This document shows positions 1-43,281 of a stretch of DNA of 64,000 bases, one piece after another. The notes under the pieces are model-generated. The model was not told the origin of the DNA and did no database searches. It saw nothing but the letters and a program-made list of their open reading frames with translations. The stretch's first letter is position 1. Every line of letters begins with the position of its first letter. The stretch covers positions 94,306-158,305 of the IMG/VR virus record IMGVR_UViG_3300028833_000073; one strand, written 5' to 3'. The stretch comes from a virus. Its lineage: Duplodnaviria > Caudoviricetes. A program made the position numbers and the translations under genes.

Positions 1-64
1 TTTGGGTACCTTAATGGTACCCTTTTTCTTTTTCTTAAAATAGCCTAGTCAGAACATACTGGTA

Positions 65-880
65 ATGATTAAGAAGGGAGCGATACATATGTCGAGAGAT
101 GTCTTGACAATGAATCATGTCGACCCGATAGATTTCAATGTAATAAGAATTCCATCGCTTCCTGTGTATGATAGAGAAGACTACGACTTCTATGATGATA
201 AAGACATAGATAAGTATATAAAGGATGTAGAAAGAGTAGCGAGGAATTCATTTGAGTATCATCGGTTCATTAAGTTCTTACGTACTCGTCTAGATATGAA
301 TAAGTGTTCATTCTACGAGAATGTATCTAATAGATTTGGTGATACAGATTGTTTTAAGATAAAGATACATATTCATCATGATCCTTTCACTCTATATGAG
401 ATTGCTAAGATAGTATATCTCAAGAGAGCAAAGAGACATGAGAATCTAGATGAACAGTTGACTGCATGTGAAGTGATGCTACTACATTATAACCTTTTAG
501 TAGGACTCATTCCACTAGCAGAGACTGTACATGAGCTAGTACATAATCAATATCTTTTTGTTCCAACTACTTCAGTTTTTGGCTTCTATAGAGACTTCAT
601 GGAAATGTATGATGAGTACATAGATCAAGAACTGAAAGATAAGATTGAAAGATTAGAAGAGTTTAGTGCTTTATATGAGGGTGAAGATAAATTCATCTTA
701 GATAAGCATTTCCTTTATACTGATCTTTCAGGAACTTATAAACTTCCTAAGTATGAAGATGTTAAAGCTTTTCTTAATGAGCGTATATCTGAGATTGATA
801 ATGGATTACCATCTCCACACGTGGAACCTAAACCAGTAAAGAAGTTAGTAGATCCACCGTGGAAGATAGTGATAGATTAA
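65..880 (+). CDS. Phage protein with degenerate HNH-like (beta-beta-alpha-Me) signature; paralog of 13775..14566
   Basis: NKCSFY...IHIHHDPF...LIPLAETVHELVH pattern; late-type promoter AACA-tactgg-TA at 53-64; ends in KKLVDPPWKIVID; start may be ATG 89. Confidence 0.6.
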   Translation: MIKKGAIHMSRDVLTMNHVDPIDFNVIRIPSLPVYDREDYDFYDDKDIDKYIKDVERVARNSFEYHRFIKFLRTRLDMNKCSFYENVSNRFGDTDCFKIKIHIHHDPFTLYEIAKIVYLKRAKRHENLDEQLTACEVMLLHYNLLVGLIPLAETVHELVHNQYLFVPTTSVFGFYRDFMEMYDEYIDQELKDKIERLEEFSALYEGEDKFILDKHFLYTDLSGTYKLPKYEDVKAFLNERISEIDNGLPSPHVEPKPVKKLVDPPWKIVID

Positions 881-916
881 GATTAAAATGACATAAATAG
901 ATAGGAGGAAGTAATC

Positions 917-1279
917 ATGCAGATTTGTTCTGTTCTTAAGCAGAAGTATGTTGACGGCACTCCAGCCGGTAAGAATTATCTAGTTGCATATTTCCCTCGT
1001 ACTAAGGACGAGGTTATTGCAATGATCATGAGGGATAACAAGACTTCTGTATCTAATGTCGTTGCTGTTGATGACGGTAAGGTATGGACGGCTGATATGA
1101 CTAAGGAGTCTGGTGAGAAGTGGAAGCTTACCTTTATTTATCATGAACTCAAGGAGCTTGAAGCCTTCTCCGAGATCAAGAAGCAGATCAAGGGTCAGAT
1201 TATCAAGCAGGCTCAGTTCATTGTCAAAACTCCAGTTGAATTCGATGAGATCAATTGGGTAACCAAGTGCTATTTTTGA
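917..1279 (+). CDS. Hypothetical protein
   Basis: AGGAGG RBS, strongly biased codons, terminator hairpin at 1294-1320. Confidence 0.8.
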   Translation: MQICSVLKQKYVDGTPAGKNYLVAYFPRTKDEVIAMIMRDNKTSVSNVVAVDDGKVWTADMTKESGEKWKLTFIYHELKELEAFSEIKKQIKGQIIKQAQFIVKTPVEFDEINWVTKCYF

Positions 1280-1329
1280 TACATGGTGATACGAGGGACT
1301 ACCTTAGGGTAGTCCCTTTTAAATAAGGA

Positions 1330-1668
1330 GTGATAATGATGCTTAATGTTAGAATTAGTTCTACATTGAATATATTAATCAGACATTTTGATCAATGTAT
1401 TAATACTTTGCTATGTAATGTGAATGAAAAGGATAGGAAAACTATCAGAGAGAGTATTGAATTATCTCCATTCTATTCTGTTATGACTGAATTAGAGAAA
1501 GATGGTACTGCTACTGGTATGCTATATGAGTTCAATAATGACATTAAGAAGAAGTATACTAAAGAGATTGAGTTATTTAAGAAGCAGCTTACTATGTATC
1601 CTAACTATTGGGATAAGATCTATGCTTTAGAAGCAGATGATGATTCTTTGCTTATATCTCTTGTCTAA
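1330..1668 (+). CDS. Hypothetical protein
   Basis: AAGGAG RBS, 112 aa ORF, followed by hairpin 1681-1700. Confidence 0.7.
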   Translation: MIMMLNVRISSTLNILIRHFDQCINTLLCNVNEKDRKTIRESIELSPFYSVMTELEKDGTATGMLYEFNNDIKKKYTKEIELFKKQLTMYPNYWDKIYALEADDDSLLISLV

Positions 1669-1731
1669 TTACTATAAACGGGGGTACCTAATGGTACCCT
1701 CAAAAAGTGTGAAAAGTTCATTTTTCAGAGA

Positions 1732-1739
1732 TATATTAT
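1732..1739 (+). promoter_or_regulatory. Early-type phage promoter TATATTAT (drives putative ~50-nt sRNA)
   Basis: Same motif and A/T-rich upstream context as ~15 other sites; resembles AR9/phiKZ early promoters. Confidence 0.65.
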
Positions 1740-1743
1740 TGGT

Positions 1744-1792
1744 AGAATACCAATACCACCATGCATTCGGATAGAATGCAATTCCCTTTTTT
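1744..1792 (+). ncRNA. Putative small antisense RNA complementary to the shared GUGGUGGUAUUGGGUA leader
   Basis: Promoter 1732-1739, AGAATACCAATACCACCA, hairpin TGCATTC-ggata-GAATGCA (1762-1780), T-tract; no ORF or RBS. Confidence 0.55.
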
Positions 1793-1800
1793 AATTTTTC

Positions 1801-1830
1801 TGACCAAACCCGAAAATAGGTATATATTAT
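1801..1830 (+). promoter_or_regulatory. Early-type promoter (TGACCAAA...TATATTAT)
   Basis: tgaccaaacccgaaaataggtaTATATTAT; same architecture at 2183, 5149, 42217, 54665, 63881 (+) and near 28165 and 30653 (-). Confidence 0.75.
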
Positions 1831-1834
1831 ATAT

Positions 1835-2170
1835 GTGAGTCTAGAGTGATAATTGTTTAAAATAAACAAAACAATCATATAACTAATTCGTGATAGCCTA
1901 AGGTTGGAGTATTCCTGTGAAAGGATCGGGGCGCTATACTGAGATAGAATCAAAGGGCGCTTATACTAATGCATGGATCTAAGTAATAGGGAGTGTAGCT
2001 ATGGTGATTCATGGGCGTGTCTTCAGCGGAGATAGTATCAATGTTACGCCTAATACCGAGATAACATCAAGGGGCGCAAAGTCTTTTAGGGCATAATAGG
2101 CAGCAGGAAACCAAGCGGCGCCAAATCAATACATGATTAGAGTACCTTTATTGGTACTCTATATTCTTTT
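1835..2170 (+). ncRNA. Putative ~330-nt non-coding RNA with repeated GGGCGY and GAGATAnnATCAA motifs
   Basis: Bounded by early promoter and terminator (2138-2170); no + strand ORF in the track; GC-enriched relative to flanks. Confidence 0.5.
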
Positions 2171-2230
2171 TTATTTTTCCTCTGACCAAAAGTAAAAATA
2201 GCGATATATTATAGACATGACTAAAGGAGG

Positions 2231-2767
2231 ATGATTCAAATGACATTGATTGAACATGACTTGAATGAACTTGCTGAACAACTGTATCTTATGGATAAGG
2301 AGGTTAGGAACTGTTGTACAATATTGCTTCGTCCTAAGGAGTTTTACTATGATACTGAGAACGATTGCAATTACTTGGAGGATTTTGTATATTCTATCTT
2401 ATCGAGAGGTTTCAAATATAAATTCATCAAGTTTGAGACTGATGATGATAATGAATTTATGGAACTTTTCGTATATAAATATGATCATCAATTTGAGATG
2501 TATAAGGCAACTGAAATTTTTAAAGCTTCTAATAGTACTAATATGTGCCGTATTGGTCAGTATATCCTTGGTAAGCTCTTAGGATATAGTGACAGGAATA
2601 TGGAAGAATTTCTCAATACTCCTCATGGTAATAAGGAAGTAAAGATAGAGCTTGAGGACAATTGGTTTGAGAAGAATTATATTGATAGTTTTGATATCAA
2701 TGAGGTTTTGGGGGAACGTAATGATGATGGAGAAAATGAAATTGTTCAGGAGAGCGATAAAGACTGA
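2231..2767 (+). CDS. Hypothetical early protein
   Basis: TATATTAT promoter, AAAGGAGG RBS; YILGKLLGYS motif. Confidence 0.8.
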   Translation: MIQMTLIEHDLNELAEQLYLMDKEVRNCCTILLRPKEFYYDTENDCNYLEDFVYSILSRGFKYKFIKFETDDDNEFMELFVYKYDHQFEMYKATEIFKASNSTNMCRIGQYILGKLLGYSDRNMEEFLNTPHGNKEVKIELEDNWFEKNYIDSFDINEVLGERNDDGENEIVQESDKD

Positions 2768-2915
2768 TATTCTTGATGTGGTATTCTACTCTAGGTATCC
2801 TTTGACTGATAACTTTGCTGAGGATATCACGATGGAGTTCATAAGGAATAAAGAATCGTTTATTTACGAAGTACAGAATAAAGGAACTAAAGCACAATAT
2901 GTAGTATATTTATAA
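2736..2915 (+). CDS. Small hypothetical protein (start uncertain)
   Basis: Fills gap between co-directional genes; GGAG before ATG. Confidence 0.4.
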   Translation: MKLFRRAIKTDILDVVFYSRYPLTDNFAEDITMEFIRNKESFIYEVQNKGTKAQYVVYL

Positions 2916-2928
2916 GAGGTGATAAAGA

Positions 2929-4266
2929 ATGAAGGATATAAGATTAGAATGTGATCCTAAGTGGTACAGTAATGTGGACTTTGAAAATCCATTTATTGTG
3001 GACAAAATTTATCCTGATGAGTTGGAAATATATACCTCATTGGATAGGACATATGATAGGATTTGGAATGGATGGAATCGTAGCTTTGGTGGTCCTCTTG
3101 AAAATGCATGTATTATCCGTGATGGTAATGAGGCATCCAAGGCAAAACTAAATAAAATGAAGAAAGGAATTCTTTATAGTAAATTGATTGATTCCGAACC
3201 ATATTTCTATATCTCTGAAAAAAGGGGTATTAAGTACAAATCAAAACAATCATTCATTAACCATAATAAGACGGAATATAGGAGGTGTGTCTTATATTAC
3301 AGAAAACGATATCAAGAATTGGTTAATGATGTCATCTCTCTTGGAAATAGGGTGGATAAGAATCTGTTCCATTATAAATATATTTTAAATCATGTTGTTG
3401 AAGAATATGATCATAAAGATTTGTTTGACATCGAGTTATTTGAGGATTTCTTAGACAAACTCAAAGCTCGTTGTAGGAACAATGCATACTTCTTCTTTAA
3501 CAATATGAACTACGACGATATCAATAAACTTGAGAATGCTAAAAAGTTATATGATCTTGTCATAAGTGATTATGATGGTTATCATGTAACTAGCTTTGAC
3601 GACTATTTAAAACTTAGGCTTGGTAGGATTACCATGAATATGTACTTACCAGCACCATTTAAAGACTATGTTCTTGATAACTCTGAGAACATACTGATTT
3701 CTATTGATGGAAATGGGCAAGTGATAAAAATAGTATACTCTCCTGTGTATAAAATAGGTGATGATGATTATGTTGTCAAGTACAATAAGTATATGCTGCT
3801 TCAGTTATATCCAGGATGTTTTGTATCAAGATGTGATGAACTCTATACTACTGAACAAGTAACATTCATGGATTCCTCTCCGGATGCATATATCTTTGAA
3901 GAACTCTGTGGTCTTGGGTTTCATCCTAAGAGAGGATTTACTAGGAATAACTTGGTTAGTAGGGAGGAAGTAAACTTCAGACTTAAGAAGGTTATTAGTG
4001 AATTTGAGATTGAAAACAAGGGGGTATTAGATTACGTTAAAAACATATGTCAAAAAATGGCATCCAAAGGAACTGAAAGATTCACTATTCAGATTACACA
4101 CACTACAGAAAGAGAAATATCAGCTCTTATCTCGTGTCTGTATATGCTTAGAAGGAGTCTTTACTTCTATTCAGTGATTAATAATCAGGTATTCAAATAC
4201 CTTGATGAAGAGAGGAGTATTGATAGCATATTGACATTTGAAGTTAAGGGTAAATGGATAATCTAA
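2929..4266 (+). CDS. Hypothetical protein
   Basis: 445 aa ORF, GAGGTG RBS, terminator at 4274-4300. Confidence 0.8.
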   Translation: MKDIRLECDPKWYSNVDFENPFIVDKIYPDELEIYTSLDRTYDRIWNGWNRSFGGPLENACIIRDGNEASKAKLNKMKKGILYSKLIDSEPYFYISEKRGIKYKSKQSFINHNKTEYRRCVLYYRKRYQELVNDVISLGNRVDKNLFHYKYILNHVVEEYDHKDLFDIELFEDFLDKLKARCRNNAYFFFNNMNYDDINKLENAKKLYDLVISDYDGYHVTSFDDYLKLRLGRITMNMYLPAPFKDYVLDNSENILISIDGNGQVIKIVYSPVYKIGDDDYVVKYNKYMLLQLYPGCFVSRCDELYTTEQVTFMDSSPDAYIFEELCGLGFHPKRGFTRNNLVSREEVNFRLKKVISEFEIENKGVLDYVKNICQKMASKGTERFTIQITHTTEREISALISCLYMLRRSLYFYSVINNQVFKYLDEERSIDSILTFEVKGKWII

Positions 4267-4360
4267 AACTTATGGGTGCTCTCACCAAGCACCCTTTTTC
4301 TTTTTATTAATCCACCATACAACTCAATGGTAAATGACGTAATCAAAGGAGGCTATAATA

Positions 4361-4951
4361 ATGTCTTTGATGGAAACGATAAAGAGATTTGGTAATACAG
4401 AAACATTTGTTACTGAGAGTATGGAGGTTGAGCTAGGACTAGAGGATGCTATCAATGAGTATTCAGGTCTAGCTGTTACTCCTACTAGGGTTGCATTCCC
4501 TGCTAGTCAGGTTCCTGTAGCAGAATTTGCTGATCCTAGTCTACCATGTAAATATGGTGTTTCGGCGGATATTTTTTCAATCTTTATGGAGCGTAATGGT
4601 CTAAAAGATATTCAAGAGGCTATGTCTACTATCGCTATGTCTAATGGTATTTCTTCTAAGGACATTATGCTTGTAATGGATAGTGATGATGTCATTAGGA
4701 GAACTATTGACGAAGCTAAGGTAGATCCTAATACTATCACTCGTAAAGAGAAGCTTACTAATATCGCTAAGGTTGGTAAGCTAATACAACATAGTAGAGA
4801 AACTGGAGTCTTTGTGGCTAAAGAGCCTAATGTAGAGAACCCTCCAGTATATCAAGTTCAATGGAATGACAATCCTAACATTGTCAACATTGAAAGAGAT
4901 ACTTGTGATCTTGGTCTATTTTCTGATGAGCGTCAGCTCACCTTCAAGTAA
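4361..4951 (+). CDS. Hypothetical late protein, possibly virion-associated
   Basis: AACT-caatgg-TA late-type promoter at 4321, AAAGGAGG RBS. Confidence 0.75.
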   Translation: MSLMETIKRFGNTETFVTESMEVELGLEDAINEYSGLAVTPTRVAFPASQVPVAEFADPSLPCKYGVSADIFSIFMERNGLKDIQEAMSTIAMSNGISSKDIMLVMDSDDVIRRTIDEAKVDPNTITRKEKLTNIAKVGKLIQHSRETGVFVAKEPNVENPPVYQVQWNDNPNIVNIERDTCDLGLFSDERQLTFK

Positions 4952-4954
4952 GCA

Positions 4955-5136
4955 ACAAACAATCTCCTACCAATACGGTAGGAGATTTATTTGCTAAGTT
5001 ATTATGTGAGAATTATATGAAAGGAGGTAATGCACATGAAAAACCATATGCGTAATGTGAGATAATGTTAGTTACGCAAACAAGTGTAACCGAAGTGTAC
5101 CCAAAGGAAAAGCTGAATTGCCCACAAGCTTACCTT
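4955..5136 (-). ncRNA. Putative sRNA, ACACUUGUUUGCGU-hairpin family (long form with anti-SD/AUG segment)
   Basis: Minus-strand AACA-aaataa-TA at 5147-5136; core 14-mer at 5074-5087; ends at hairpin 4961-4987. Confidence 0.6.
4961..4987. terminator. Bidirectional intrinsic terminator hairpin
   Basis: AATCTCCTACC-aatac-GGTAGGAGATT with T-rich tails on both strands. Confidence 0.75.
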
Positions 5137-5170
5137 ATTATTTTGTTATGACCAAAAAAATATATAGACA

Positions 5171-5198
5171 CATATTATATATGTGGTGGTATTGGGTA
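5171..5198 (+). promoter_or_regulatory. Early promoter plus conserved 16-nt leader GTGGTGGTATTGGGTA (copy 1 of 5)
   Basis: CATATTAT-atat-GTGGTGGTATTGGGTA; same leader at 33785-33770(-), 39201, 40471, 42251. Confidence 0.8.
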
Positions 5199-5226
5199 AA
5201 ATTCTAATAGAAAGGAAGGAATAACA

Positions 5227-5961
5227 ATGGCCACGTATACAAGACTTGATATGCAATCACAGATATTTGAAGAAGGAGTTTTGAATATATTTACAGATGC
5301 CAGTATCAATCCCTTGGGAAATAATAAATGGGATGGATGTGCTGGTGCAATACCTGTAACTTATGATCATAAGATTAATAATCTTACGGAATATATACCG
5401 ATGATAAGAGTGTTTAGAGATTGCACTAATAATATTGCAGAACTTTCAGCCATAGAGATGGCATGTGAGTTTGCAGTAAGCAATCAATCTAAGTATGTCA
5501 GAATCAATCTCTTTAGTGATTCTGAGTATAGTATTAAGACGTTGAAAGAATGGATTTTTAATTGGGCCAAAGTATCATGCCGTGATGGTATTGAAGGCTT
5601 TAGAAATCTTAGAAAGAGTGATGGTAACTTAGTAAAAAATCATACCATCATCATAAATATTATCAACAAGATTTTGTCAATAGATCCTAGACAGTGTGGC
5701 TTTAATGTGTACCATGTAAAGGCTCACACTAACGGGGACAGTAAGAAAGTACAAGAGCAGTTTAAGAAAGCTAATAAGATATCTATTAATATCTTAGATG
5801 CTGATATCTTAGCTTACTACAATGACAAAGTAGATAATCTTACAAGAGATATCTTACTTAGCAATGAAAGTAGTTATTATGAGTGTGAGGTAGTACCATA
5901 TGCAATACTTCCTTATGCTTTTAATAAATATAAGAGAATTATAGGTTCAAGGAGGTTCTAG
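5227..5961 (+). CDS. rnhA: Ribonuclease HI
   Basis: IFTDAS, TNNIAELSAI, FSDSEY, HVKAH, NDKVDNL catalytic motifs. Confidence 0.92.
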   Translation: MATYTRLDMQSQIFEEGVLNIFTDASINPLGNNKWDGCAGAIPVTYDHKINNLTEYIPMIRVFRDCTNNIAELSAIEMACEFAVSNQSKYVRINLFSDSEYSIKTLKEWIFNWAKVSCRDGIEGFRNLRKSDGNLVKNHTIIINIINKILSIDPRQCGFNVYHVKAHTNGDSKKVQEQFKKANKISINILDADILAYYNDKVDNLTRDILLSNESSYYECEVVPYAILPYAFNKYKRIIGSRRF

Positions 5962-5963
5962 TT

Positions 5964-6293
5964 ATGTATGCTAACTATGAGTGTCTCGTTTTTACCAAAA
6001 GGATTAAAGCGATCGCTGACCAACAGATGAGAGATAAGCTCTTAGGCTATTGTATTAGGCTTATCTTCAAACACCACTTTGGTGAAGGTGCTAAGGGACT
6101 TGACTTTATTGAGGACTTTGTAGTGGATGCTTCACTTGCTTACTACTACTCAAGAGAACTCAATCTGTTAAACTTCATGAAGCAGTATATCAAGGACTAT
6201 ACTCTCATGGAAGATCAGAGTCTTGTAGGTAAGATCAGTGTCAATATCAACAACTTTGGTAGTGATATTGATGCATTGTTCAAGGATATCTAG
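5964..6293 (+). CDS. Hypothetical protein
   Basis: AAGGAGG RBS, coupled to RNase H gene. Confidence 0.75.
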   Translation: MYANYECLVFTKRIKAIADQQMRDKLLGYCIRLIFKHHFGEGAKGLDFIEDFVVDASLAYYYSRELNLLNFMKQYIKDYTLMEDQSLVGKISVNINNFGSDIDALFKDI

Positions 6294-28620: not shown

Positions 28621-28742
28621 CTGTACCCTTTCTGCTGTAGTATCATAGTTATCTACAGCTAGATATTATCACTCGTACTAAACATTTCTATCTAGTACTC
28701 GCAATAATAATATATCTTTGAAATTTGAACAATTCACACTTT

Positions 28743-31976: not shown

Positions 31977-32248
31977 CATGTTTGTTCACGTAAGATGGTT
32001 AAACTTACGCCGTCTTAATGTAAAGACTGCTATATGTCACCATATAGATCAGACTATATCACATACTCATATGAGTATCTTAGTATTTCGAGTCACCAAT
32101 TGACCCTACGTCTTTCGACTAGTCGTTGAACCTTCACATCCTTTCTAGGATTAGCTCGGCTGCTGATTGTCTTATCATATGATAAGAGTTTCCAGCAATT
32201 AACTAAGTTTTTCCATATAGAGTCACCTCTATAGGCCCCGCGCAGTTC
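31977..32248 (-). mobile_element. Group I intron (272 nt, ORF-less) inserted in NRNP|TL
   Basis: P1 CCCU/GGGG; P AAUUGCUGGAAA, Q AAUCAGCAG, R GUUCAACGACUA, S GAUAUAGUCU; terminal G at 31977. Confidence 0.92.
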
Positions 32249-33700
32249 AGGGTTACGATTAATTATGAATGGGATCCCGTTTTCGTTTGCTTTGATAATG
32301 TAGTTAACGATCTTCCATACACGATCATCATAATCCGTATAGGCTTTATCAAAGACTGCTTTAGCAGTATGCATAGCCATACCATAAGTATTATGGAGGA
32401 TATTGATAATCGCATGTTCAAGAAGCTTAACCAATGCCTTAAACGGCAACTTGATCTGATCAGTTCTAAGAGTCCAGTTAGGTACAATAACAGCTCTGCA
32501 ACTGAAATTATACCGGCCACCATACAGTGACCTAATAATACCTTTCTTAGAACTCATGATCTTGATTACTTCATCATAAATCTCCATGAGATTAAACTGA
32601 AGATCATAGAGTAATTGATTGCGGGTCTTCTTAGACCTGCGTCCTTTTATTGATTCTTTATGATTGATGATAGCTCCGAGCATAGCCATGATATTAAAGT
32701 ACTTATTCGTATCCTGGAATGCAAACTTATCACCATTAAGATGATATGGACGCAAGAGAGTAGTAAACACAGGAATACTATGAGTGAATACTTTTTCTCT
32801 ATCGTGCATGATATCATCATATACATCTTTCTTATTTGGATTCATCTTAAGATAATAGTCCATGATCTCATCGAAGTTCTCATAGAACCCCAACATTCCA
32901 TAATCATAGTACTTATCTAAATCTCCTCTTTCTACTTGGATAGAAAATCCATTCTCATCCTTTTCATCCTTTGGATCAAGAATACCTGTGAGTGCTGCCT
33001 TACCAATAAAGAACTCAATAGACTTATACAATCCTGGATGTATCACATAGTCATCATCCAGAATAATCCATCCAGTAATCTTGAAATCATCATTCTTCTT
33101 CACTACCTTCTTACCACAGATAGGACAGATAGTTCCTTCATTCTGTTGGTTCTTAGTAGCTCCACACGGACAAGTATATCTAGTTCCATAAGAACTAGCA
33201 TCATCAAATGTAGGACCAAACAAAGGAGAATAGATTGAGTTAGGTTCTTTGATATCCTTCTTAACTCCTTGAGGTTTCTCGATACGGATTCCTTTACCTT
33301 TACCAAAGTCTTCCATCCGTTCTTCATCAAGATTGATTCTTTCAATCCATGTTCTATATTCATATTTATTACTGTGAGGATACGATGAGTCTTTATCATC
33401 CACTGGAATGGGAGCTTTAGCTACTATTGCTTTTACTACTTCATATGGATTTGCAAGAGATTCTGCTAATCCAGTTCTAAGAAGATTATTAACTTCTTCT
33501 TTCCTTTTATTGAAGTTGCTTATTCCCCTCCATTTATCCTCAACTTTGAAATTCTTATAGTTGGATCCTTCAGTGGGAACAACCATAGAAAAGTGTCTTT
33601 CCTTTGGATAGTCCTTTAGCATTGATTCTCTTTGCTCTCCATGGAAATACTCTATTTTGCTTCCAACTGTAGGTACCACCTTAGAAAACTTCTTTTCCAT
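32249..33700 (-). CDS. RNAP beta' N-terminal subunit, exon 1 (spliced product 605 aa; probably non-virion RNAP)
   Basis: CPCG...CPICG zinc finger, KKGIIRSLYGGRYNFSCRAVIVP, INRNP; early promoter. Confidence 0.92.
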
Positions 33701-33769
33701 TTGTAGTCCTCCTTTTCAACATGTTACTTTAACATACCATAATAAATAGTTTGGTGTATATTAGAATAC

Positions 33770-33797
33770 TACCCAATACCACCACATATATAATATA
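33770..33797 (-). promoter_or_regulatory. Early promoter plus conserved leader (copy 2 of 5)
   Basis: Minus strand TATATTAT-atat-GTGGTGGTATTGGGTA. Confidence 0.8.
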
Positions 33798-39171: not shown

Positions 39172-39225
39172 AAACTTTTTCTTAGCGACATATTATATAT
39201 GTGGTGGTATTGGGTAAATGTTTAA
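39172..39225 (+). repeat. 54-bp exact direct repeat: early promoter plus leader (copy 3 of 5)
   Basis: Identical to 40442-40495. Confidence 0.9.
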
Positions 39226-39242: not shown

Positions 39243-40412
39243 ATGAGTGTATTTAACAACAACGAAGCAAAAAAGAACTATGATGAGAATGGTAACTGGT
39301 GTACTGATTATGAGAATATGGAGGTATCATTTGACAAGTTACGTATTCCGGAAAATGAAAAAGATTTTATGAGATTTCATAAAAGATTTATGAAAGAATG
39401 TGGAGCATTTGTAGAAGGAATGACAAGGATTCCTAATAAGGTAATTTGGAGTCAGCCTTCTATGGAAGAAGAATATGAAAAAGGACCTATTCTTGAAGGT
39501 TATGAAGAATGGTCCAAAGAAGGTGATGAAGAAGAAGAAGATGATGATGAGACAGAGTATTATCAGATTATCTTTGGTAAGTATCCAACAATGAATGACA
39601 AAGTACTTTATTATGATAGACCAATACTTATAGCAACATTTCCTATTCCTTCATTACCTGATAAACATGCTGCAATGATGATCACCAGCATTGGTAATAA
39701 GAAGGTGGACAGATATGATGCTATTCTGAAAGATTGGAAAGAAGAAGGACTTAAAAAGAAATCTGCTGCAAAGTGTGACTCAATAAGATCTTTGGATATG
39801 ATAAAGGTAAGAAGGCATGTAGGTTTTCTTACTATGAGAGATGTTGTTACTGTAACTAATAAGATTTTTCTGTTTCAGAAAGAAGCATTTAATAATCCAT
39901 GGAACTTCCTTAACTGGTGTATCATGGTCAATGTTACTAATAGTGTAGGTGAGGGTAAAAACAATATTCAGAAGATCAAGTCTTTGGAAGATATTTCAAA
40001 TAATCATGATGCAAACTGTGTTGATATTGCAATAGCGGTTTATCAGATCTGTAAGTCTGCAAAAATTGACGCAACAATCGGATGGGTTAAGTTTATTTAT
40101 AATGAACACAAGACAAGAGGTCATCTTTTCTGTGTCTTTAAACATAAAGGAGCGATCTATAGTTTCCAATATATTCCTGATATTCCTTTGTGCCGTATTG
40201 AAAAATATGATGATAAGGAATATATCGAGGTAATTAAGAAAGAAGGAGATATTATTCATTCTTATATTGATAAACATGAAAAGGCTGAATCTGATGTAAG
40301 ATATTATGAGTTTGATAAGAGTGATCTTAAGAAGTGTACTGATACTGTATATCTTAAGACACATAACCAGAGACAGTTTCTTGATAGTGTTTGGCCAGAT
40401 ACTGTAGTCTGA
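39243..40412 (+). CDS. PemK/MazF-like domain fused to transglutaminase-like (Cys-His) domain, with acidic N-terminal region
   Basis: RPILI...ITS...DWKEEGLKKKSAAKCDSIRSLD...VGFL; ANCVDIA...GHLFCVF. Confidence 0.62.
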   Translation: MSVFNNNEAKKNYDENGNWCTDYENMEVSFDKLRIPENEKDFMRFHKRFMKECGAFVEGMTRIPNKVIWSQPSMEEEYEKGPILEGYEEWSKEGDEEEEDDDETEYYQIIFGKYPTMNDKVLYYDRPILIATFPIPSLPDKHAAMMITSIGNKKVDRYDAILKDWKEEGLKKKSAAKCDSIRSLDMIKVRRHVGFLTMRDVVTVTNKIFLFQKEAFNNPWNFLNWCIMVNVTNSVGEGKNNIQKIKSLEDISNNHDANCVDIAIAVYQICKSAKIDATIGWVKFIYNEHKTRGHLFCVFKHKGAIYSFQYIPDIPLCRIEKYDDKEYIEVIKKEGDIIHSYIDKHEKAESDVRYYEFDKSDLKKCTDTVYLKTHNQRQFLDSVWPDTVV

Positions 40413-40441: not shown

Positions 40442-40495
40442 AAACTTTTTCTTAGCGACATATTATATATGTGGTGGTATTGGGTAAATGTTTAA
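40442..40495 (+). repeat. 54-bp exact direct repeat: early promoter plus leader (copy 4 of 5)
   Basis: Identical to 39172-39225. Confidence 0.9.
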
Positions 40496-40563: not shown

Positions 40564-41070
40564 ATGAGTGAAGTAAAGTATAATTCAAAGGGACAGAGAT
40601 TGGTAGATCCACCGTTTAGAATTGTTACGGCGGATGATGCACAGAAAGTAATGGTAGCACAGGCTAATAAAGCCAGAGAAGATGATCCAAAACAGCATAG
40701 AATGTACTTGATTATGTGGGTGTATAATGATGGTAGTGGTGATAAGGGATTTGAGTTTGTACAAGGTCAAGCAAATGCAAGACAGCTTATCAAGAATCTC
40801 ATTGATCAGATTGATATCAAACAGTCATTCATAATCAATGAGGTTACACCATTTGGAGAAGATGGAGGGAAACCTTCCATCTATACTTTCATGAAAGCTC
40901 TTGAGCCATACTATAATGATGGATTCTTAATTGATGAGTATCTTGAAGCAGATACAATTGATAAAGAATTCGAGAGAATGCAAAATATGACGATTGGAGA
41001 TTTGCCAGAGATCAATACTGAACAACAGATTCAGAATACTCTGGCTCATTATGAATCGGAGGGCAATTAA
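40564..41070 (+). CDS. Hypothetical protein (N-terminal RLVDPPF motif)
   Basis: AGAAAGGAG RBS. Confidence 0.8.
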   Translation: MSEVKYNSKGQRLVDPPFRIVTADDAQKVMVAQANKAREDDPKQHRMYLIMWVYNDGSGDKGFEFVQGQANARQLIKNLIDQIDIKQSFIINEVTPFGEDGGKPSIYTFMKALEPYYNDGFLIDEYLEADTIDKEFERMQNMTIGDLPEINTEQQIQNTLAHYESEGN

Positions 41071-42238: not shown

Positions 42239-42266
42239 CATATTATATATGTGGTGGTATTGGGTA
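42239..42266 (+). promoter_or_regulatory. Early promoter plus conserved leader (copy 5 of 5)
   Basis: CATATTAT-atat-GTGGTGGTATTGGGTA. Confidence 0.8.
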
Positions 42267-42309: not shown

Positions 42310-43281
42310 ATGTATTACCAAAATCCTAATGTTTATGGTGGTTATCCTGCACAGCCTTATGTTGTGAATCCTGGGGTACCGACTTATGTACCGCCAGCTC
42401 CTGTGGCTGTAAGCAGGAAGGAGAACCCCATTGGGAAGGAAGGTTACGAATTGTTAAGGAGGAAAGGAGGAAGTAAGTTAGATTTCTTCGCATCTCGTGA
42501 AGAGGTAACTCGGACTATGTGTGATCATACTTACGGTGGCCAGTTCCAGTTTGATACCGAAGATTATGATCGTGGTATTTATCGTTGCCGTATTTGTGGT
42601 TCTGTAATAAATCTTGGTGTTAACTATAGTCCCGATGTGATTAGGAATATTCTTGATTACACTGAGAACGCATGGGATAACATGAAGGTTAGGAACAATG
42701 GTGTTATTTCTAATGACATCATTCAGGATATGGCAAAAGCTCTTGTTCTCTTGAAGAGGCTTCCGGCTGCTATGGAAGCAGTTGATAAGAACTTCTCTAG
42801 GAATGAGGCAGCTCAGCAGAATCTTGGTTATCGTGGTTTTAACACAGCTCAGACCGCATTGAATATGATTAATGGTAATGGAGGGTATTCGTATACTCCT
42901 TCATTCAATCCTATGCCGAGTGGACCTATGGGCGGATTCATGGGTAATCCGTTTATGGGACCTAATCCGAATATGCCTGTAGGACCTGTACCGATGGCTC
43001 CTCAGGCACCAGCTCCTGGTCCGATGTACATGGCACCTCAGGCTCAACAGGCAATGTATCCTGTAGCGACTGGTCAGCAGATGTATGTCGATCCTTACAA
43101 TGGCGTAACTTATCCGATGCCGCAGGGACAGCCTGCGCCTCAGCCTCAGGTACCTCAGTATGCAGCTCCTCCTCAGGCAGCAGGAACTGTAGTACCGGAA
43201 CCTCAGACTCAGGCAACACCTCAGGCTCCGACTGTAACACCGGCTTCCAAACATGAGATCCGTAAGGGTTATACCCATTGA
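42310..43281 (+). CDS. Zinc-finger protein (CxH...CxxC) with Pro/Gln/Tyr/Met-rich disordered ends
   Basis: MCDH...CRICG; long PQ-rich C-terminus; AAGGAGG RBS. Confidence 0.75.
   Translation: MYYQNPNVYGGYPAQPYVVNPGVPTYVPPAPVAVSRKENPIGKEGYELLRRKGGSKLDFFASREEVTRTMCDHTYGGQFQFDTEDYDRGIYRCRICGSVINLGVNYSPDVIRNILDYTENAWDNMKVRNNGVISNDIIQDMAKALVLLKRLPAAMEAVDKNFSRNEAAQQNLGYRGFNTAQTALNMINGNGGYSYTPSFNPMPSGPMGGFMGNPFMGPNPNMPVGPVPMAPQAPAPGPMYMAPQAQQAMYPVATGQQMYVDPYNGVTYPMPQGQPAPQPQVPQYAAPPQAAGTVVPEPQTQATPQAPTVTPASKHEIRKGYTH

What the first reader, a model, noticed from the sequence alone, without database searches (positions are those of the whole stretch)
1732..1792. A ~50-nt early RNA antisense to a leader shared by five early transcripts (candidate sRNA regulon)
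Seen: an early promoter (TATATTAT, 1732-1739) is followed only by AGAATACCAATACCACCA, a 7-bp hairpin and a T-tract, with no gene. CCAATACCACCA (1750-1761) is the exact 12-nt complement of the leader GTGGTGGTATTGGGTA found 4 nt after the promoter at five loci. For the RNAP gene leader (33762-33784) the match extends to TAGAATAC with a 4-nt bulge. Inference: one trans-acting sRNA pairs with the extreme 5' ends of the mRNAs for RNase H, RNAP beta'N, the PemK fusion, 40564 and the zinc-finger protein, and could time, stabilise or destroy them together. The +1 position is inferred by analogy with phiKZ/AR9 early promoter spacing. Alternative: an orientation-independent DNA operator; 1737-1755 is also a DNA inverted repeat.
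Basis: partly seen in the sequence, partly recalled or inferred. Interest (0 to 1): 0.85.

Follow-up and report, generated by a model that had tools for sequence, protein, structure and literature searches.

The report
Candidate anti-leader small RNA in phage
A gene-less promoter-plus-hairpin unit in a giant phage carries a conserved 10-13-base stretch exactly complementary to the first bases of eight early phage mRNAs (including two phage RNA polymerase subunits), so it probably makes a small antisense RNA that pairs with their 5' ends, but no transcript has been seen.

Summary
The box GGTGGTATTGG sits right at the predicted start of eight early transcripts: five in the window, two elsewhere in the 158-kb record and one on the adjoining contig. 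Its only other occurrence is the reverse complement at 1750-1760, 11 nt after a promoter-like ATATTAT.

Of 41 such promoters, only this one and its neighbour at 1824 lack a gene. Three metagenomic variants keep the unit. The anti-box CAATACCACCAT and the hairpin are conserved, with a compensatory pair, while the spacers around them diverge by 60-80%.

Four target leaders pair the same box in cis as a 5'-terminal hairpin, which points to RNA-level pairing.

Best reading (about 0.5): a small antisense RNA, or a 3'-UTR element, that forms a duplex with the extreme 5' end of box-bearing mRNAs. The likely effect is on their stability or translation.

- **Not shown:** any transcript, the start sites, the direction of the effect, or seed/target covariation (both are invariant).
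- **Unexplained:** a covarying palindrome over the predicted start, whose left arm should not be transcribed from this promoter.
- **Not excluded:** a DNA operator, or an empty promoter-terminator cassette.

The parts
1682..1699 (+). Hairpin GGGTACC-taat-GGTACCC just after the stop codon of the upstream gene (1339-1668). No T-run follows it on the + strand.
   Evidence: Sequence. Predicted by RNAalifold on five variants.
1707..1739 (+). Promoter-like element P1: upstream element GTGTGAA (1707-1713), 19-nt spacer, core ATATTAT (1733-1739). It belongs to the second promoter class.
   Evidence: The same (A/G)TGTGA(A/T)-N19-ATATTAT layout occurs at 7 other promoters of this phage, read from the listings. 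The core and the -3..-1 positions stay within the promoter consensus in all variants. P1 scores low (-2.8) on a weight matrix dominated by the first class.
1737..1755 (.). Inverted repeat TATTGGTA-gaa-TACCAATA centred on the predicted start site. The right arm is the 5' half of the anti-box.
   Evidence: 100% paired in 5 sequences, with two pairs changed on both sides (G-C to U-A, U-A to C-G). Stem and loop lengths vary: 8+3, 7+3 and 7+2.
1744..1746 (+). Predicted transcription start: A1746 by the AR9 rule (7th nt after ATATTAT), or A1744 by sigma-70-like spacing.
   Evidence: Inference only. PMC5312081. The 7th nt is G at 35 of the 37 best promoters.
1750..1762 (+). Anti-box CCAATACCACCAT. 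It is complementary to leader nt +1..+11, or to -2..+11 with one G.U pair. The core CAATACCACCAT (1751-1762) is invariant in all variants.
   Evidence: Window versus L049 differs at 1 of 13 positions here, against 7 of 11 and 4 of 6 in the two flanking spacers.
1762..1780 (+). 7-bp hairpin TGCATTC-ggata-GAATGCA. The loop and inner stem are invariant.
   Evidence: -8.9 kcal/mol, z -2.8. One compensatory pair, C-G to U-A, in L049 and L056.
1787..1799 (+). T-rich run (TTTTTTAATTTTT), 6 nt after the hairpin. It is also the usual T-rich stretch upstream of the next promoter (CTGACC at 1800, ATATTAT at 1824).
   Evidence: A T-run is present in all variants, 6-7 nt after the hairpin.
5185..5195 (+). 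Box GGTGGTATTGG at the predicted +1 of the RNase H mRNA (gene 5227-5961).
   Evidence: PF00075, 1.7e-13. The leader is identical in L049/L065.
33773..33783 (-). Box at +1 of the RNA polymerase beta' N-terminal part mRNA (gene 33700-32093).
   Evidence: Predicted 5' hairpin with the box as its 5' arm, z -2.7.
39203..39213 (+). Box at +1 of the mRNA for a 389-aa protein with a MazF/PemK-like domain (39243-40412).
   Evidence: phrog_1936, 1e-6.
40473..40483 (+). Box at +1 of the mRNA for a 168-aa protein of unknown function (40564-41070).
42253..42263 (+). Box at +1 of the mRNA for a 323-aa protein (42310-43281), with a weak zinc-ribbon hit only.
   Evidence: 5'-terminal hairpin with z -4.0, kept in L057 and L061 by a G-C/G.U swap.

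Best explanation
The unit at about 1733-1799 encodes a short non-coding RNA element. Its single-stranded segment CAAUACCACC(AU) base-pairs in trans with the extreme 5' end (GGUGGUAUUGG) of eight early phage mRNAs. These include the mRNAs for RNA polymerase beta' (N-terminal part) and beta, RNase H and a MazF-like fusion protein.

The RNA is most simply made from its own early-type promoter. It would start at 1744-1746, run about 45-55 nt, carry the seed at its 5' end, and end with a stability hairpin and a U-run. The same element would also be present, partly masked by the upstream palindrome, in read-through transcripts of the upstream operon.

Pairing gives each target a blunt 5'-terminal duplex of 11-13 bp. 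Four of the targets already form the equivalent duplex in cis. The most likely consequence is therefore a change in 5'-end-dependent mRNA decay, either protection or, with a double-strand nuclease, destruction. In the RNase H mRNA, pairing could also release a start codon that the box can sequester.

Shown: the sequences, their complementarity, their conservation and the structural covariation. Inferred: that the RNA is made, where it starts and ends, that pairing happens in vivo, and the direction of the effect.
For: 1. **Specificity.** GGTGGTATTGG occurs 8 times as a leader and once in antisense in 216 kb, with none expected by chance in the window.
   - Seed-only duplexes are -21.0 kcal/mol for all eight leaders, against -11.0 for the next best of 40 leaders.
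   - Shuffled seeds give a best energy averaging -11.6.
   - Elsewhere in the window nothing is better than -17.7.
2. **Orphan status.** Of 41 promoters, only P1 and its neighbour P2 lack an SD-preceded ORF within 300 nt; 37 of the others have one within 121 nt.
3. **Constraint on the box.** Positions +1 to +11 are invariant in all eight copies and in six copies from relatives (L049, L057 x3, L061, L062/64). Position 12 onward and the DNA upstream of the promoter core vary. The complement covers exactly this invariant part.
4. **Conservation of the unit.** Against L049 and L056, the anti-box differs at 1 of 13 positions (an inserted T at its edge). The hairpin differs at 2 of 18, which is one compensatory pair. 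The 5' spacer differs at 7-9 of 11 and the 3' spacer at 4-5 of 6.
5. **Co-occurrence.** Box and anti-box lie together on L049/L065.
6. **RNA-level use of the box.**
   - Four leaders fold into 5'-terminal hairpins with the box as 5' arm: z -6.5, -2.7, -4.0 and -3.2.
   - The RNAP beta leader carries its own CAAUACC partner.
   - The hairpin of the 42310 leader survives in L057/L061 through a G-C/G.U swap.
   - Two of the three changes in the L057 RNAP leader keep pairing, G.U to A-U and G-C to G.U.
   - Summed over the eight leaders, the box is more paired than with shuffled downstream sequence; about 1.5% of shuffles reach the observed value.
7. **Accessibility.** The seed is unpaired in the predicted fold of the short RNA.
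Against:
- P1 departs from the main promoter consensus. It has T instead of A after ATATTAT and A instead of G at the predicted start, and scores -2.8 on the class-1-dominated matrix.
- The hairpin is 6-7 nt away from the T-run, unlike the phage's ordinary terminators, where the T-run follows the stem directly. Termination there is uncertain, and the T-run may simply belong to the next promoter.
- The palindrome 1737-1755 covaries, yet its left arm lies upstream of any start this promoter could give. Some constraint therefore acts on DNA or on a longer RNA.
- Seed and box never vary, so there is no seed/target covariation. All structural covariation rests on two haplotype groups, possibly a single evolutionary branch.
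- The box is absent from more distant relatives (RNAP 71% identical, RNase H 48% identical). The system is therefore young and could be a by-product of cassette shuffling.
Confidence: 0.5

Rival explanations
1. Structural 3' end or empty cassette. The region is the structured 3' untranslated end of the upstream operon (three or four hairpins and a T-run), combined with a gene-less promoter-terminator cassette left by module shuffling. The complement to the box descends from an inverted piece of a promoter-leader cassette. It is retained only because half of it forms the right arm of the palindrome. It has no trans-acting role.
For: - RNAalifold folds the whole stretch into hairpins.
- The first hairpin lacks a T-run, so upstream transcripts probably read through to 1787-1799.
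- CAATA of the anti-box is the right arm of a covarying stem.
- The locus is a shuffling hot spot. The unit at 1824-2180 is absent from L049, a real small gene takes its place in L056, and L052/L053 have a different upstream module. The breakpoints lie at promoter cassettes.
- This resembles the PeSL promoter-terminator cassettes of T4-type phages (PMC2839356, PMC4122927).
Against: - The unpaired part CCACCAT is as invariant as the paired part, while adjacent unpaired spacers diverge by 60-80%.
- The complement matches precisely the invariant 11 nt of the box and stops where the box stops.
- No trace of the promoter half of an inverted cassette remains next to it, by my comparison.
- Chance placement of a perfect 11-mer complement within about 15 nt of one of about 40 promoters is of the order of 1e-4. 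This is my estimate, not a tool result.
Confidence: 0.2
2. DNA operator. The box is the binding site of a phage or host DNA-binding protein that sits on the start site of a subset of early promoters, for shut-off or activation. The copy at 1750-1760 is the same site in the other orientation on P1.
For: - The box always overlaps the start site of a promoter, including at P1.
- It is invariant as double-stranded sequence.
- Nothing in the sequence alone separates RNA from DNA recognition of the 11-mer.
- The palindrome over the P1 start shows that some constraint acts outside an RNA begun at P1.
Against: - An operator gives no reason for a promoter and hairpin without a gene.
- The distance from ATATTAT to the box differs between P1 variants (11, 9 and 8 nt), and its orientation is opposite to the eight leaders.
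- The spacing of the palindrome half-sites varies (9, 7 and 6 nt), which argues against a dimeric protein site.
- Four leaders carry cis RNA partners for the box, maintained through G.U-compatible changes that mean nothing in DNA.
Confidence: 0.12
3. Upstream promoter with attenuator. P1 is a second, upstream promoter for whatever gene follows. The hairpin and T-run form a leader attenuator, and the anti-box is part of a long 5' leader rather than of a stand-alone small RNA.
For: - In L049/L065 the unit is followed directly by the promoter and gene homologous to 2231-2767.
- The hairpin plus distant T-run is a weak terminator, so read-through is plausible.
Against: - The unit stays linked to the upstream gene while the downstream neighbour differs in all four lineages: a non-coding unit, a small gene, the 178-aa gene, or another promoter.
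- Every downstream unit has its own strong promoter.
- This reading also leaves the anti-box unexplained unless it pairs with the box.
Confidence: 0.1

Closest known systems
Small RNAs that pair with the extreme 5' end of an mRNA and alter 5'-end-dependent decay: RoxS-yflS in Bacillus subtilis (PMC5419742) and FasX-ska in group A Streptococcus (PMC12675982)
   Same: A short trans-encoded RNA with a C-rich single-stranded seed pairs with the very first nucleotides of its target and creates a 5'-terminal duplex. In those systems the duplex blocks 5'-3' exonucleolytic decay.
   Different: - Here the regulator and all eight targets belong to a lytic giant phage.
- The targets share one identical 11-nt box fused to their promoter, rather than unrelated imperfect sites.
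- Several targets make the same duplex in cis.
- Expression, the host nucleases and the direction of the effect are all unknown.
AR9/phiKZ-type early promoters of giant phages with multisubunit RNA polymerases (AAATATATATTAT-N6-G+1; PMC5312081)
   Same: The core ATATTAT is followed 6 nt later by a G at about 35 sites. The phage encodes split beta and beta' subunits distantly related to those of phiR1-37 and AR9 (about 30% identity).
   Different: - This phage's promoters also carry a fixed TGA(C/A) element 19 nt upstream of the core. That gives a sigma-70-like -35/-10 geometry which the AR9 consensus lacks.
- No shared 5' leader box or antisense partner is reported for AR9. For phiKZ, one predicted 75-nt sRNA could not be detected (PMC8244752).
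PeSL composite promoter-terminator cassettes of T4-type phages (PMC2839356, PMC4122927)
   Same: Repeated terminator-hairpin, T-run and early-promoter modules flank small variable genes and mark the breakpoints of module gain and loss between close relatives, as seen around 1669-2230.
   Different: PeSLs act as recombination substrates and ordinary expression signals. They are not described as carrying a shared transcribed box with a trans-encoded complement.
5'-terminal stem-loops and SD-like 5' stabilisers of Gram-positive mRNAs (own knowledge: ermC and aprE leaders, the cryIIIA STAB-SD, the SP82 early-RNA stabiliser)
   Same: A structure or bound factor within a few nucleotides of the 5' end prolongs mRNA life. 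Four box leaders have such hairpins starting at nt 1-4.
   Different: In the remaining leaders the second strand would be supplied in trans by a separate RNA. The box resembles an SD only weakly (GGUGGU versus GGAGGU or GGUGAU).

Membership tests
Trans-encoded base-pairing small RNA | Own promoter | tested here: inconclusive
   The core ATATTAT and the class-2 upstream element GTGTGAA-N19 match seven other promoters, most of them followed by a gene, and stay within consensus in the variants. But T replaces A after the core, A replaces G at +1, and activity is untested.
Trans-encoded base-pairing small RNA | No protein-coding potential | tested here: met
   There is no SD-preceded ORF. The ATG at 1761 is ATT in L049/L056, and indels shift every frame.
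Trans-encoded base-pairing small RNA | Accessible seed complementary to several targets | tested here: met
   11-13 nt of perfect pairing with eight leaders at -21 to -22.5 kcal/mol, clearly separated from all other leaders. The seed is unpaired in the predicted fold.
Trans-encoded base-pairing small RNA | Seed conserved more than the rest; structure kept by compensatory change | tested here: met
   Only two haplotype groups are available.
Trans-encoded base-pairing small RNA | Seed and target covary | tested here: inconclusive
   Both are invariant in every lineage that has them. More distant relatives have neither in the stretches available.
Trans-encoded base-pairing small RNA | A discrete transcript exists | not testable with these tools
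Rho-independent (intrinsic) terminator | U-run directly after a G+C-rich stem | tested here: not met
   The stem has 3 G-C pairs out of 7, and the T-run starts 6-7 nt after it in all variants. Ordinary terminators of this phage have the T-run within 0-2 nt.
AR9-type early promoter (virion RNA polymerase) | ATATTAT followed by 6 nt and a G start | tested here: inconclusive
   The core is present, but the 7th nt is A in the window, L054/L055 and L049, and G in L056. Which polymerase reads these promoters is unknown, and a -35-like TGAC at 17-bp spacing is also present.
5'-end-protecting sRNA (RoxS/FasX type) | Pairing includes the first nucleotides of the target mRNA | tested here: inconclusive
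   True if target starts follow either promoter rule. The starts themselves are not mapped.
5'-end-protecting sRNA (RoxS/FasX type) | Target is stabilised against a 5'-dependent nuclease | not testable with these tools
   The host is unknown and no expression or decay data exist.

The most novel reading that the evidence does not exclude
A giant phage times a whole block of early genes, including the beta and beta' subunits of a phage-encoded RNA polymerase, with one tiny RNA. That RNA supplies in trans the missing strand of a 5'-terminal duplex. A promoter-fused 11-nt box marks the mRNAs. Some carry their own partner strand and are autonomous, while the others depend on the trans RNA. The palindrome over the small RNA's start keeps the seed masked in read-through transcripts. 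This would be a phage-internal sRNA regulon acting on mRNA 5' ends.
Probability: 0.25. Interest if true: 0.85.

Novelty: new variant of a known kind. Interest (0 to 1): 0.62.

Why it matters
Regulatory small RNAs of strictly lytic phages are almost unknown. In the phiKZ transcriptome study, one predicted 75-nt sRNA could not be detected and the authors call the field open (PMC8244752).

Here the sequence alone yields a complete, testable circuit:
- one candidate regulator;
- eight targets defined by an identical promoter-fused box;
- natural cis-paired controls among those targets;
- two subunits of a phage-encoded multisubunit RNA polymerase among the targets.

If confirmed, it would show post-transcriptional co-regulation of an early gene block in a giant phage. 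It would also provide a compact 11-nt tag and anti-tag pair for controlling mRNA fate from the 5' end. If refuted, the locus still documents how promoter-leader cassettes and their fragments are shuffled in these genomes.

Tried and rejected
**Searches for relatives that gave nothing**
- Megablast of 1-6000 against cultured phages: no match.
- The search for related loci with both flanking proteins in viral contigs: none.
- Pattern ATATTAT-N6-box in viral contigs: 32 stretches. Apart from L009, which is G001, all were chance matches inside coding sequence.
- Metagenome scan with the conserved P1 upstream anchor: 0 hits.
- Scans for anti-box plus hairpin in viral and genome contigs: 0 hits.
- Longer contigs for the L054 and L056 lineages: none on record.
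- The 296,790-bp contig that carries an identical copy of the product of 2231-2767 has no retrievable DNA.

**Ideas considered and dropped**
- A tRNA-like end (ACCACCA): ARAGORN finds no tRNA in the window.
- A known RNA family: nothing relevant in Rfam, even at E up to 5.
- Minus-strand transcription of the locus: no early-type promoter on the minus strand nearby. The late-type motif AACA-N6-TR is not enriched, with 75 found against 94 expected, and is absent on the minus strand between 1760 and 3357.
- The neighbouring 330-nt non-coding RNA as a sponge for the small RNA: best duplex only -9.7 kcal/mol.
- A motif shared between the hairpin and that RNA (GATAGAAT): the 8-mer occurs 33 times in the two records, so it is not meaningful.
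- Analogous antisense units for the other leader families: none found downstream of a promoter (output partly cut).
- The box as an SD-like ribosome site: only weak resemblance, and it does not explain the perfect complement.

Full report
**What is there**

The window is the last 64 kb of a 158,305-bp IMG/VR virus record, estimated 64% complete. A second record, G001 (57,820 bp), overlaps its end at 99% identity over 129 bp and so continues the same or a near-identical genome. The phage encodes split RNA polymerase subunits. Their nearest cultured relatives are Yersinia phage phiR1-37 (30.7% identity) and Bacillus phage AR9/PBS1 (28%). It is a distant member of the giant phages with their own multisubunit polymerases. 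It has no close cultured relative.

- TATATTAT at 1732-1739;
- AGAATACCAATACCACCA at 1744-1761;
- a 7-bp hairpin at 1762-1780 (-8.9 kcal/mol, z -2.8);
- two T-runs at 1787-1792 and 1795-1799;
- no conserved reading frame.

**The promoter family and the start site**

ATATTAT marks about 40 intergenic sites in the two records. In the 37 best, the seventh base after the core is G in 35 and A in 2. This matches the experimentally defined AR9 early promoter, AAATATATATTAT-N6-G+1 (PMC5312081).

Unlike the AR9 consensus, these promoters also have a fixed TGA(C/A) element 19 nt before the core. That gives a sigma-70-like -35/-10 geometry with a 17-bp spacer. A host-type polymerase starting two bases earlier is therefore equally possible.

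Two classes differ in the upstream element:
- TGACCAAA in most promoters;
- (A/G)TGTGA(A/T) in eight, including P1 at 1733.

Most other members of P1's class are followed by genes, so the class looks functional. P1 nevertheless departs from the norm, with T after the core and A at the predicted start (1746, or 1744 on the host-type rule).

Of 41 promoters, 39 are followed by an SD-preceded ORF or were false negatives of my filter: 37 have one within 121 nt, and for two (G000 44923 and 158209) the filter found none. Only P1 and its neighbour P2 (1824) lack one.

**The box**

GGTGGTATTGG starts at the predicted +1 of eight transcripts. Their products are:
- RNase H (PF00075, 1.7e-13);
- the N-terminal part of RNA polymerase beta';
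- RNA polymerase beta (phrog_3295, 4e-81);
- a 389-aa protein with a MazF/PemK-like domain;
- four proteins without informative matches.

The eleven bases are invariant in all eight copies. They are also invariant in six copies from relatives whose proteins or DNA are 79-85% identical (L049, L057 x3, L061, L062/64). In contrast, the sequence varies from position 12 onward and upstream of the promoter core. The copies are therefore not recent duplicates, and the box itself is under constraint.

The box is absent from the stretches available for more distant relatives (RNAP 71% identical, L058; RNase H 48% identical, L068). The system is therefore confined to a narrow clade.

**The anti-box unit is conserved**

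Homologues of the two flanking proteins led to four further versions of the locus:
- L054 and L055 have the same core as the window.
- L049 (also L050, L051 and L065-67) and L056 differ from it.

Against the latter two, the differences distribute as follows:

| Segment | Positions differing from the window |
|---|---|
| Stop codon to end of promoter core | 1-2 of 71 |
| Spacer after the promoter | 7-9 of 11 |
| Anti-box | 1 of 13 (an inserted T at its edge) |
| Hairpin | 2 of 18 (one compensatory C-G to U-A pair) |
| Spacer after the hairpin | 4-5 of 6 |

Constraint thus falls on CAATACCACCAT and on the hairpin, including its loop. This is the pattern expected of a seed plus a structural stem. 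L049/L065 carries the unit and a box-bearing RNase H leader on one contig.

The downstream neighbour of the unit differs in every lineage, but the upstream gene is constant.

**Pairing**

- The first 17 nt of the predicted RNA pair with all eight leaders at -21.0 kcal/mol.
- The next best of 40 leaders is -11.0.
- Shuffled seeds give a best value averaging -11.6.
- If the leaders start two bases earlier, the duplex is 13 bp and -22.5 kcal/mol. Nothing else in the window is better than -17.7.

**The box is also paired in cis**

Four of the eight leaders fold into a 5'-terminal hairpin whose 5' arm is the box:
- RNAP beta: -21.2 kcal/mol, z -6.5, with its own CAAUACC partner;
- RNAP beta': z -2.7;
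- the 42310 gene: z -4.0;
- RNase H: z -3.2, where the partner includes the start codon.

In relatives the 42310 hairpin is kept by swapping a G-C and a G.U pair. In the L057 RNAP leader, two of three substitutions fall on paired positions and keep pairing. Summed over all eight leaders, the box is more paired than with shuffled downstream sequence; about 1.5% of shuffles reach the observed value.

These are small samples. They nevertheless point to the box acting as one strand of an RNA duplex at the 5' end, and G.U-compatible changes mean nothing for a DNA site.

**What does not fit**

- The inverted repeat 1737-1755, centred on the predicted start, is 100% paired in all variants and has two pairs changed on both sides. 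Its stem and loop lengths differ between variants. This argues for a nucleic-acid hairpin rather than a dimeric protein site. Its left arm overlaps the promoter core, however, and cannot be in an RNA that starts at P1.
- The simplest reconciliation involves transcripts of the upstream operon. I take that operon to start at a late-type AACA-N6-TA at 53-64, but this is weakly supported because the motif is not enriched. These transcripts would read through the first hairpin, which has no T-run, and so carry the anti-box half-masked. P1-initiated RNA would carry it free. This is conjecture.
- The hairpin at 1762-1780 is 6-7 nt from the T-run in all variants, unlike the phage's ordinary terminators. 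The 3' end of the RNA is therefore uncertain.
- All structural covariation rests on two haplotype groups.

**Mechanism and rivals**

I judge an antisense RNA element pairing with the 5' box the best explanation, with confidence about 0.5. Its most likely effect is on 5'-end-dependent decay or, for RNase H, on start-codon access. The direction of the effect is unknown.

The rivals are:
- a structured 3' end or an empty promoter-terminator cassette with no trans role (0.2);
- a DNA operator (0.12);
- an upstream promoter with an attenuator for the downstream gene (0.1).

The nearest known systems are RoxS-yflS and FasX-ska, where a small RNA pairs with the first bases of an mRNA and blocks 5' decay (PMC5419742, PMC12675982). 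The modular genome context resembles the PeSL cassettes of T4-type phages (PMC2839356, PMC4122927).

A phage-internal regulon defined by a promoter-fused box, with cis-paired and trans-dependent members, has not to my knowledge been described. For phiKZ, one predicted sRNA could not be detected (PMC8244752).

**Limits**

No RNA data could be reached. Searches of viral, metagenome and genome contig collections found no further copies of the unit. The 296,790-bp contig that carries an identical copy of the product of 2231-2767 has no retrievable DNA.

Noticed in passing
window 1824-2180: A strong class-1 promoter (ATATTAT at 1824) is followed by about 330 nt without an ORF, ending in a canonical terminator at 2138-2161. 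The unit is absent from L049. In L056 the same promoter and first 30 nt of leader drive a real small gene. Rfam finds nothing. It is not complementary to the small RNA (best duplex -9.7 kcal/mol).
   Followed up: partly
G000 85941-86205 (8.1-8.4 kb before the window start): A class-2 promoter drives a transcript of about 250 nt. Its first 16 nt (AGTAATAGGGTACCTT) are exactly complementary to its last 16 nt, which are followed by TTTTT. The transcript would therefore form a panhandle that doubles as a terminator. It contains only a 35-codon ORF. This is another case of 5'-end pairing in this phage.
   Followed up: partly
window 32030-32258 (-): A group I intron (RF00028, 73 bits, E 1e-16) lies at the 3' end of the RNA polymerase beta' N-terminal ORF (33700-32093). 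The polymerase gene therefore appears to be interrupted by an intron.
   Followed up: no
G001 6-134 versus G000 158177-158305: The IMG/VR record IMGVR_UViG_3300028833_000179 overlaps the end of the window's record at 99% identity, so the two are adjoining pieces of one phage genome or of near-identical strains. A 296,790-bp ENA contig carries a protein identical to the product of 2231-2767 and is probably a complete genome.
   Followed up: partly
whole genome; e.g. window 1800-1830, 2182-2212, 5150-5178: The early-type promoters combine the AR9-like core ATATTAT-N6-G with a -35-like TGACC or TGTGAA at a fixed 17-bp spacing from (T/C)ATATT. Each promoter subclass comes with its own leader family, for example GCCGTATAGATAATGATGT in about nine copies. 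Which polymerase reads them is open.
   Followed up: partly
L065 5572-6669 (relative of window 1280-1330): In the L049/L065 lineage, a TnpB/IS605 OrfB gene (365 aa; PF01385, PF07282) is inserted between the homologues of window genes 917-1279 and 1339-1668. The window has only a terminator hairpin there.
   Followed up: no
window 28663-28713: Two ATATTAT cores face each other 44 nt apart on opposite strands, at 28663(+) and 28713(-). The minus-strand one has the class-2 upstream element and leads to the gene 28620-28231. The plus-strand one scores poorly as a promoter.
   Followed up: no
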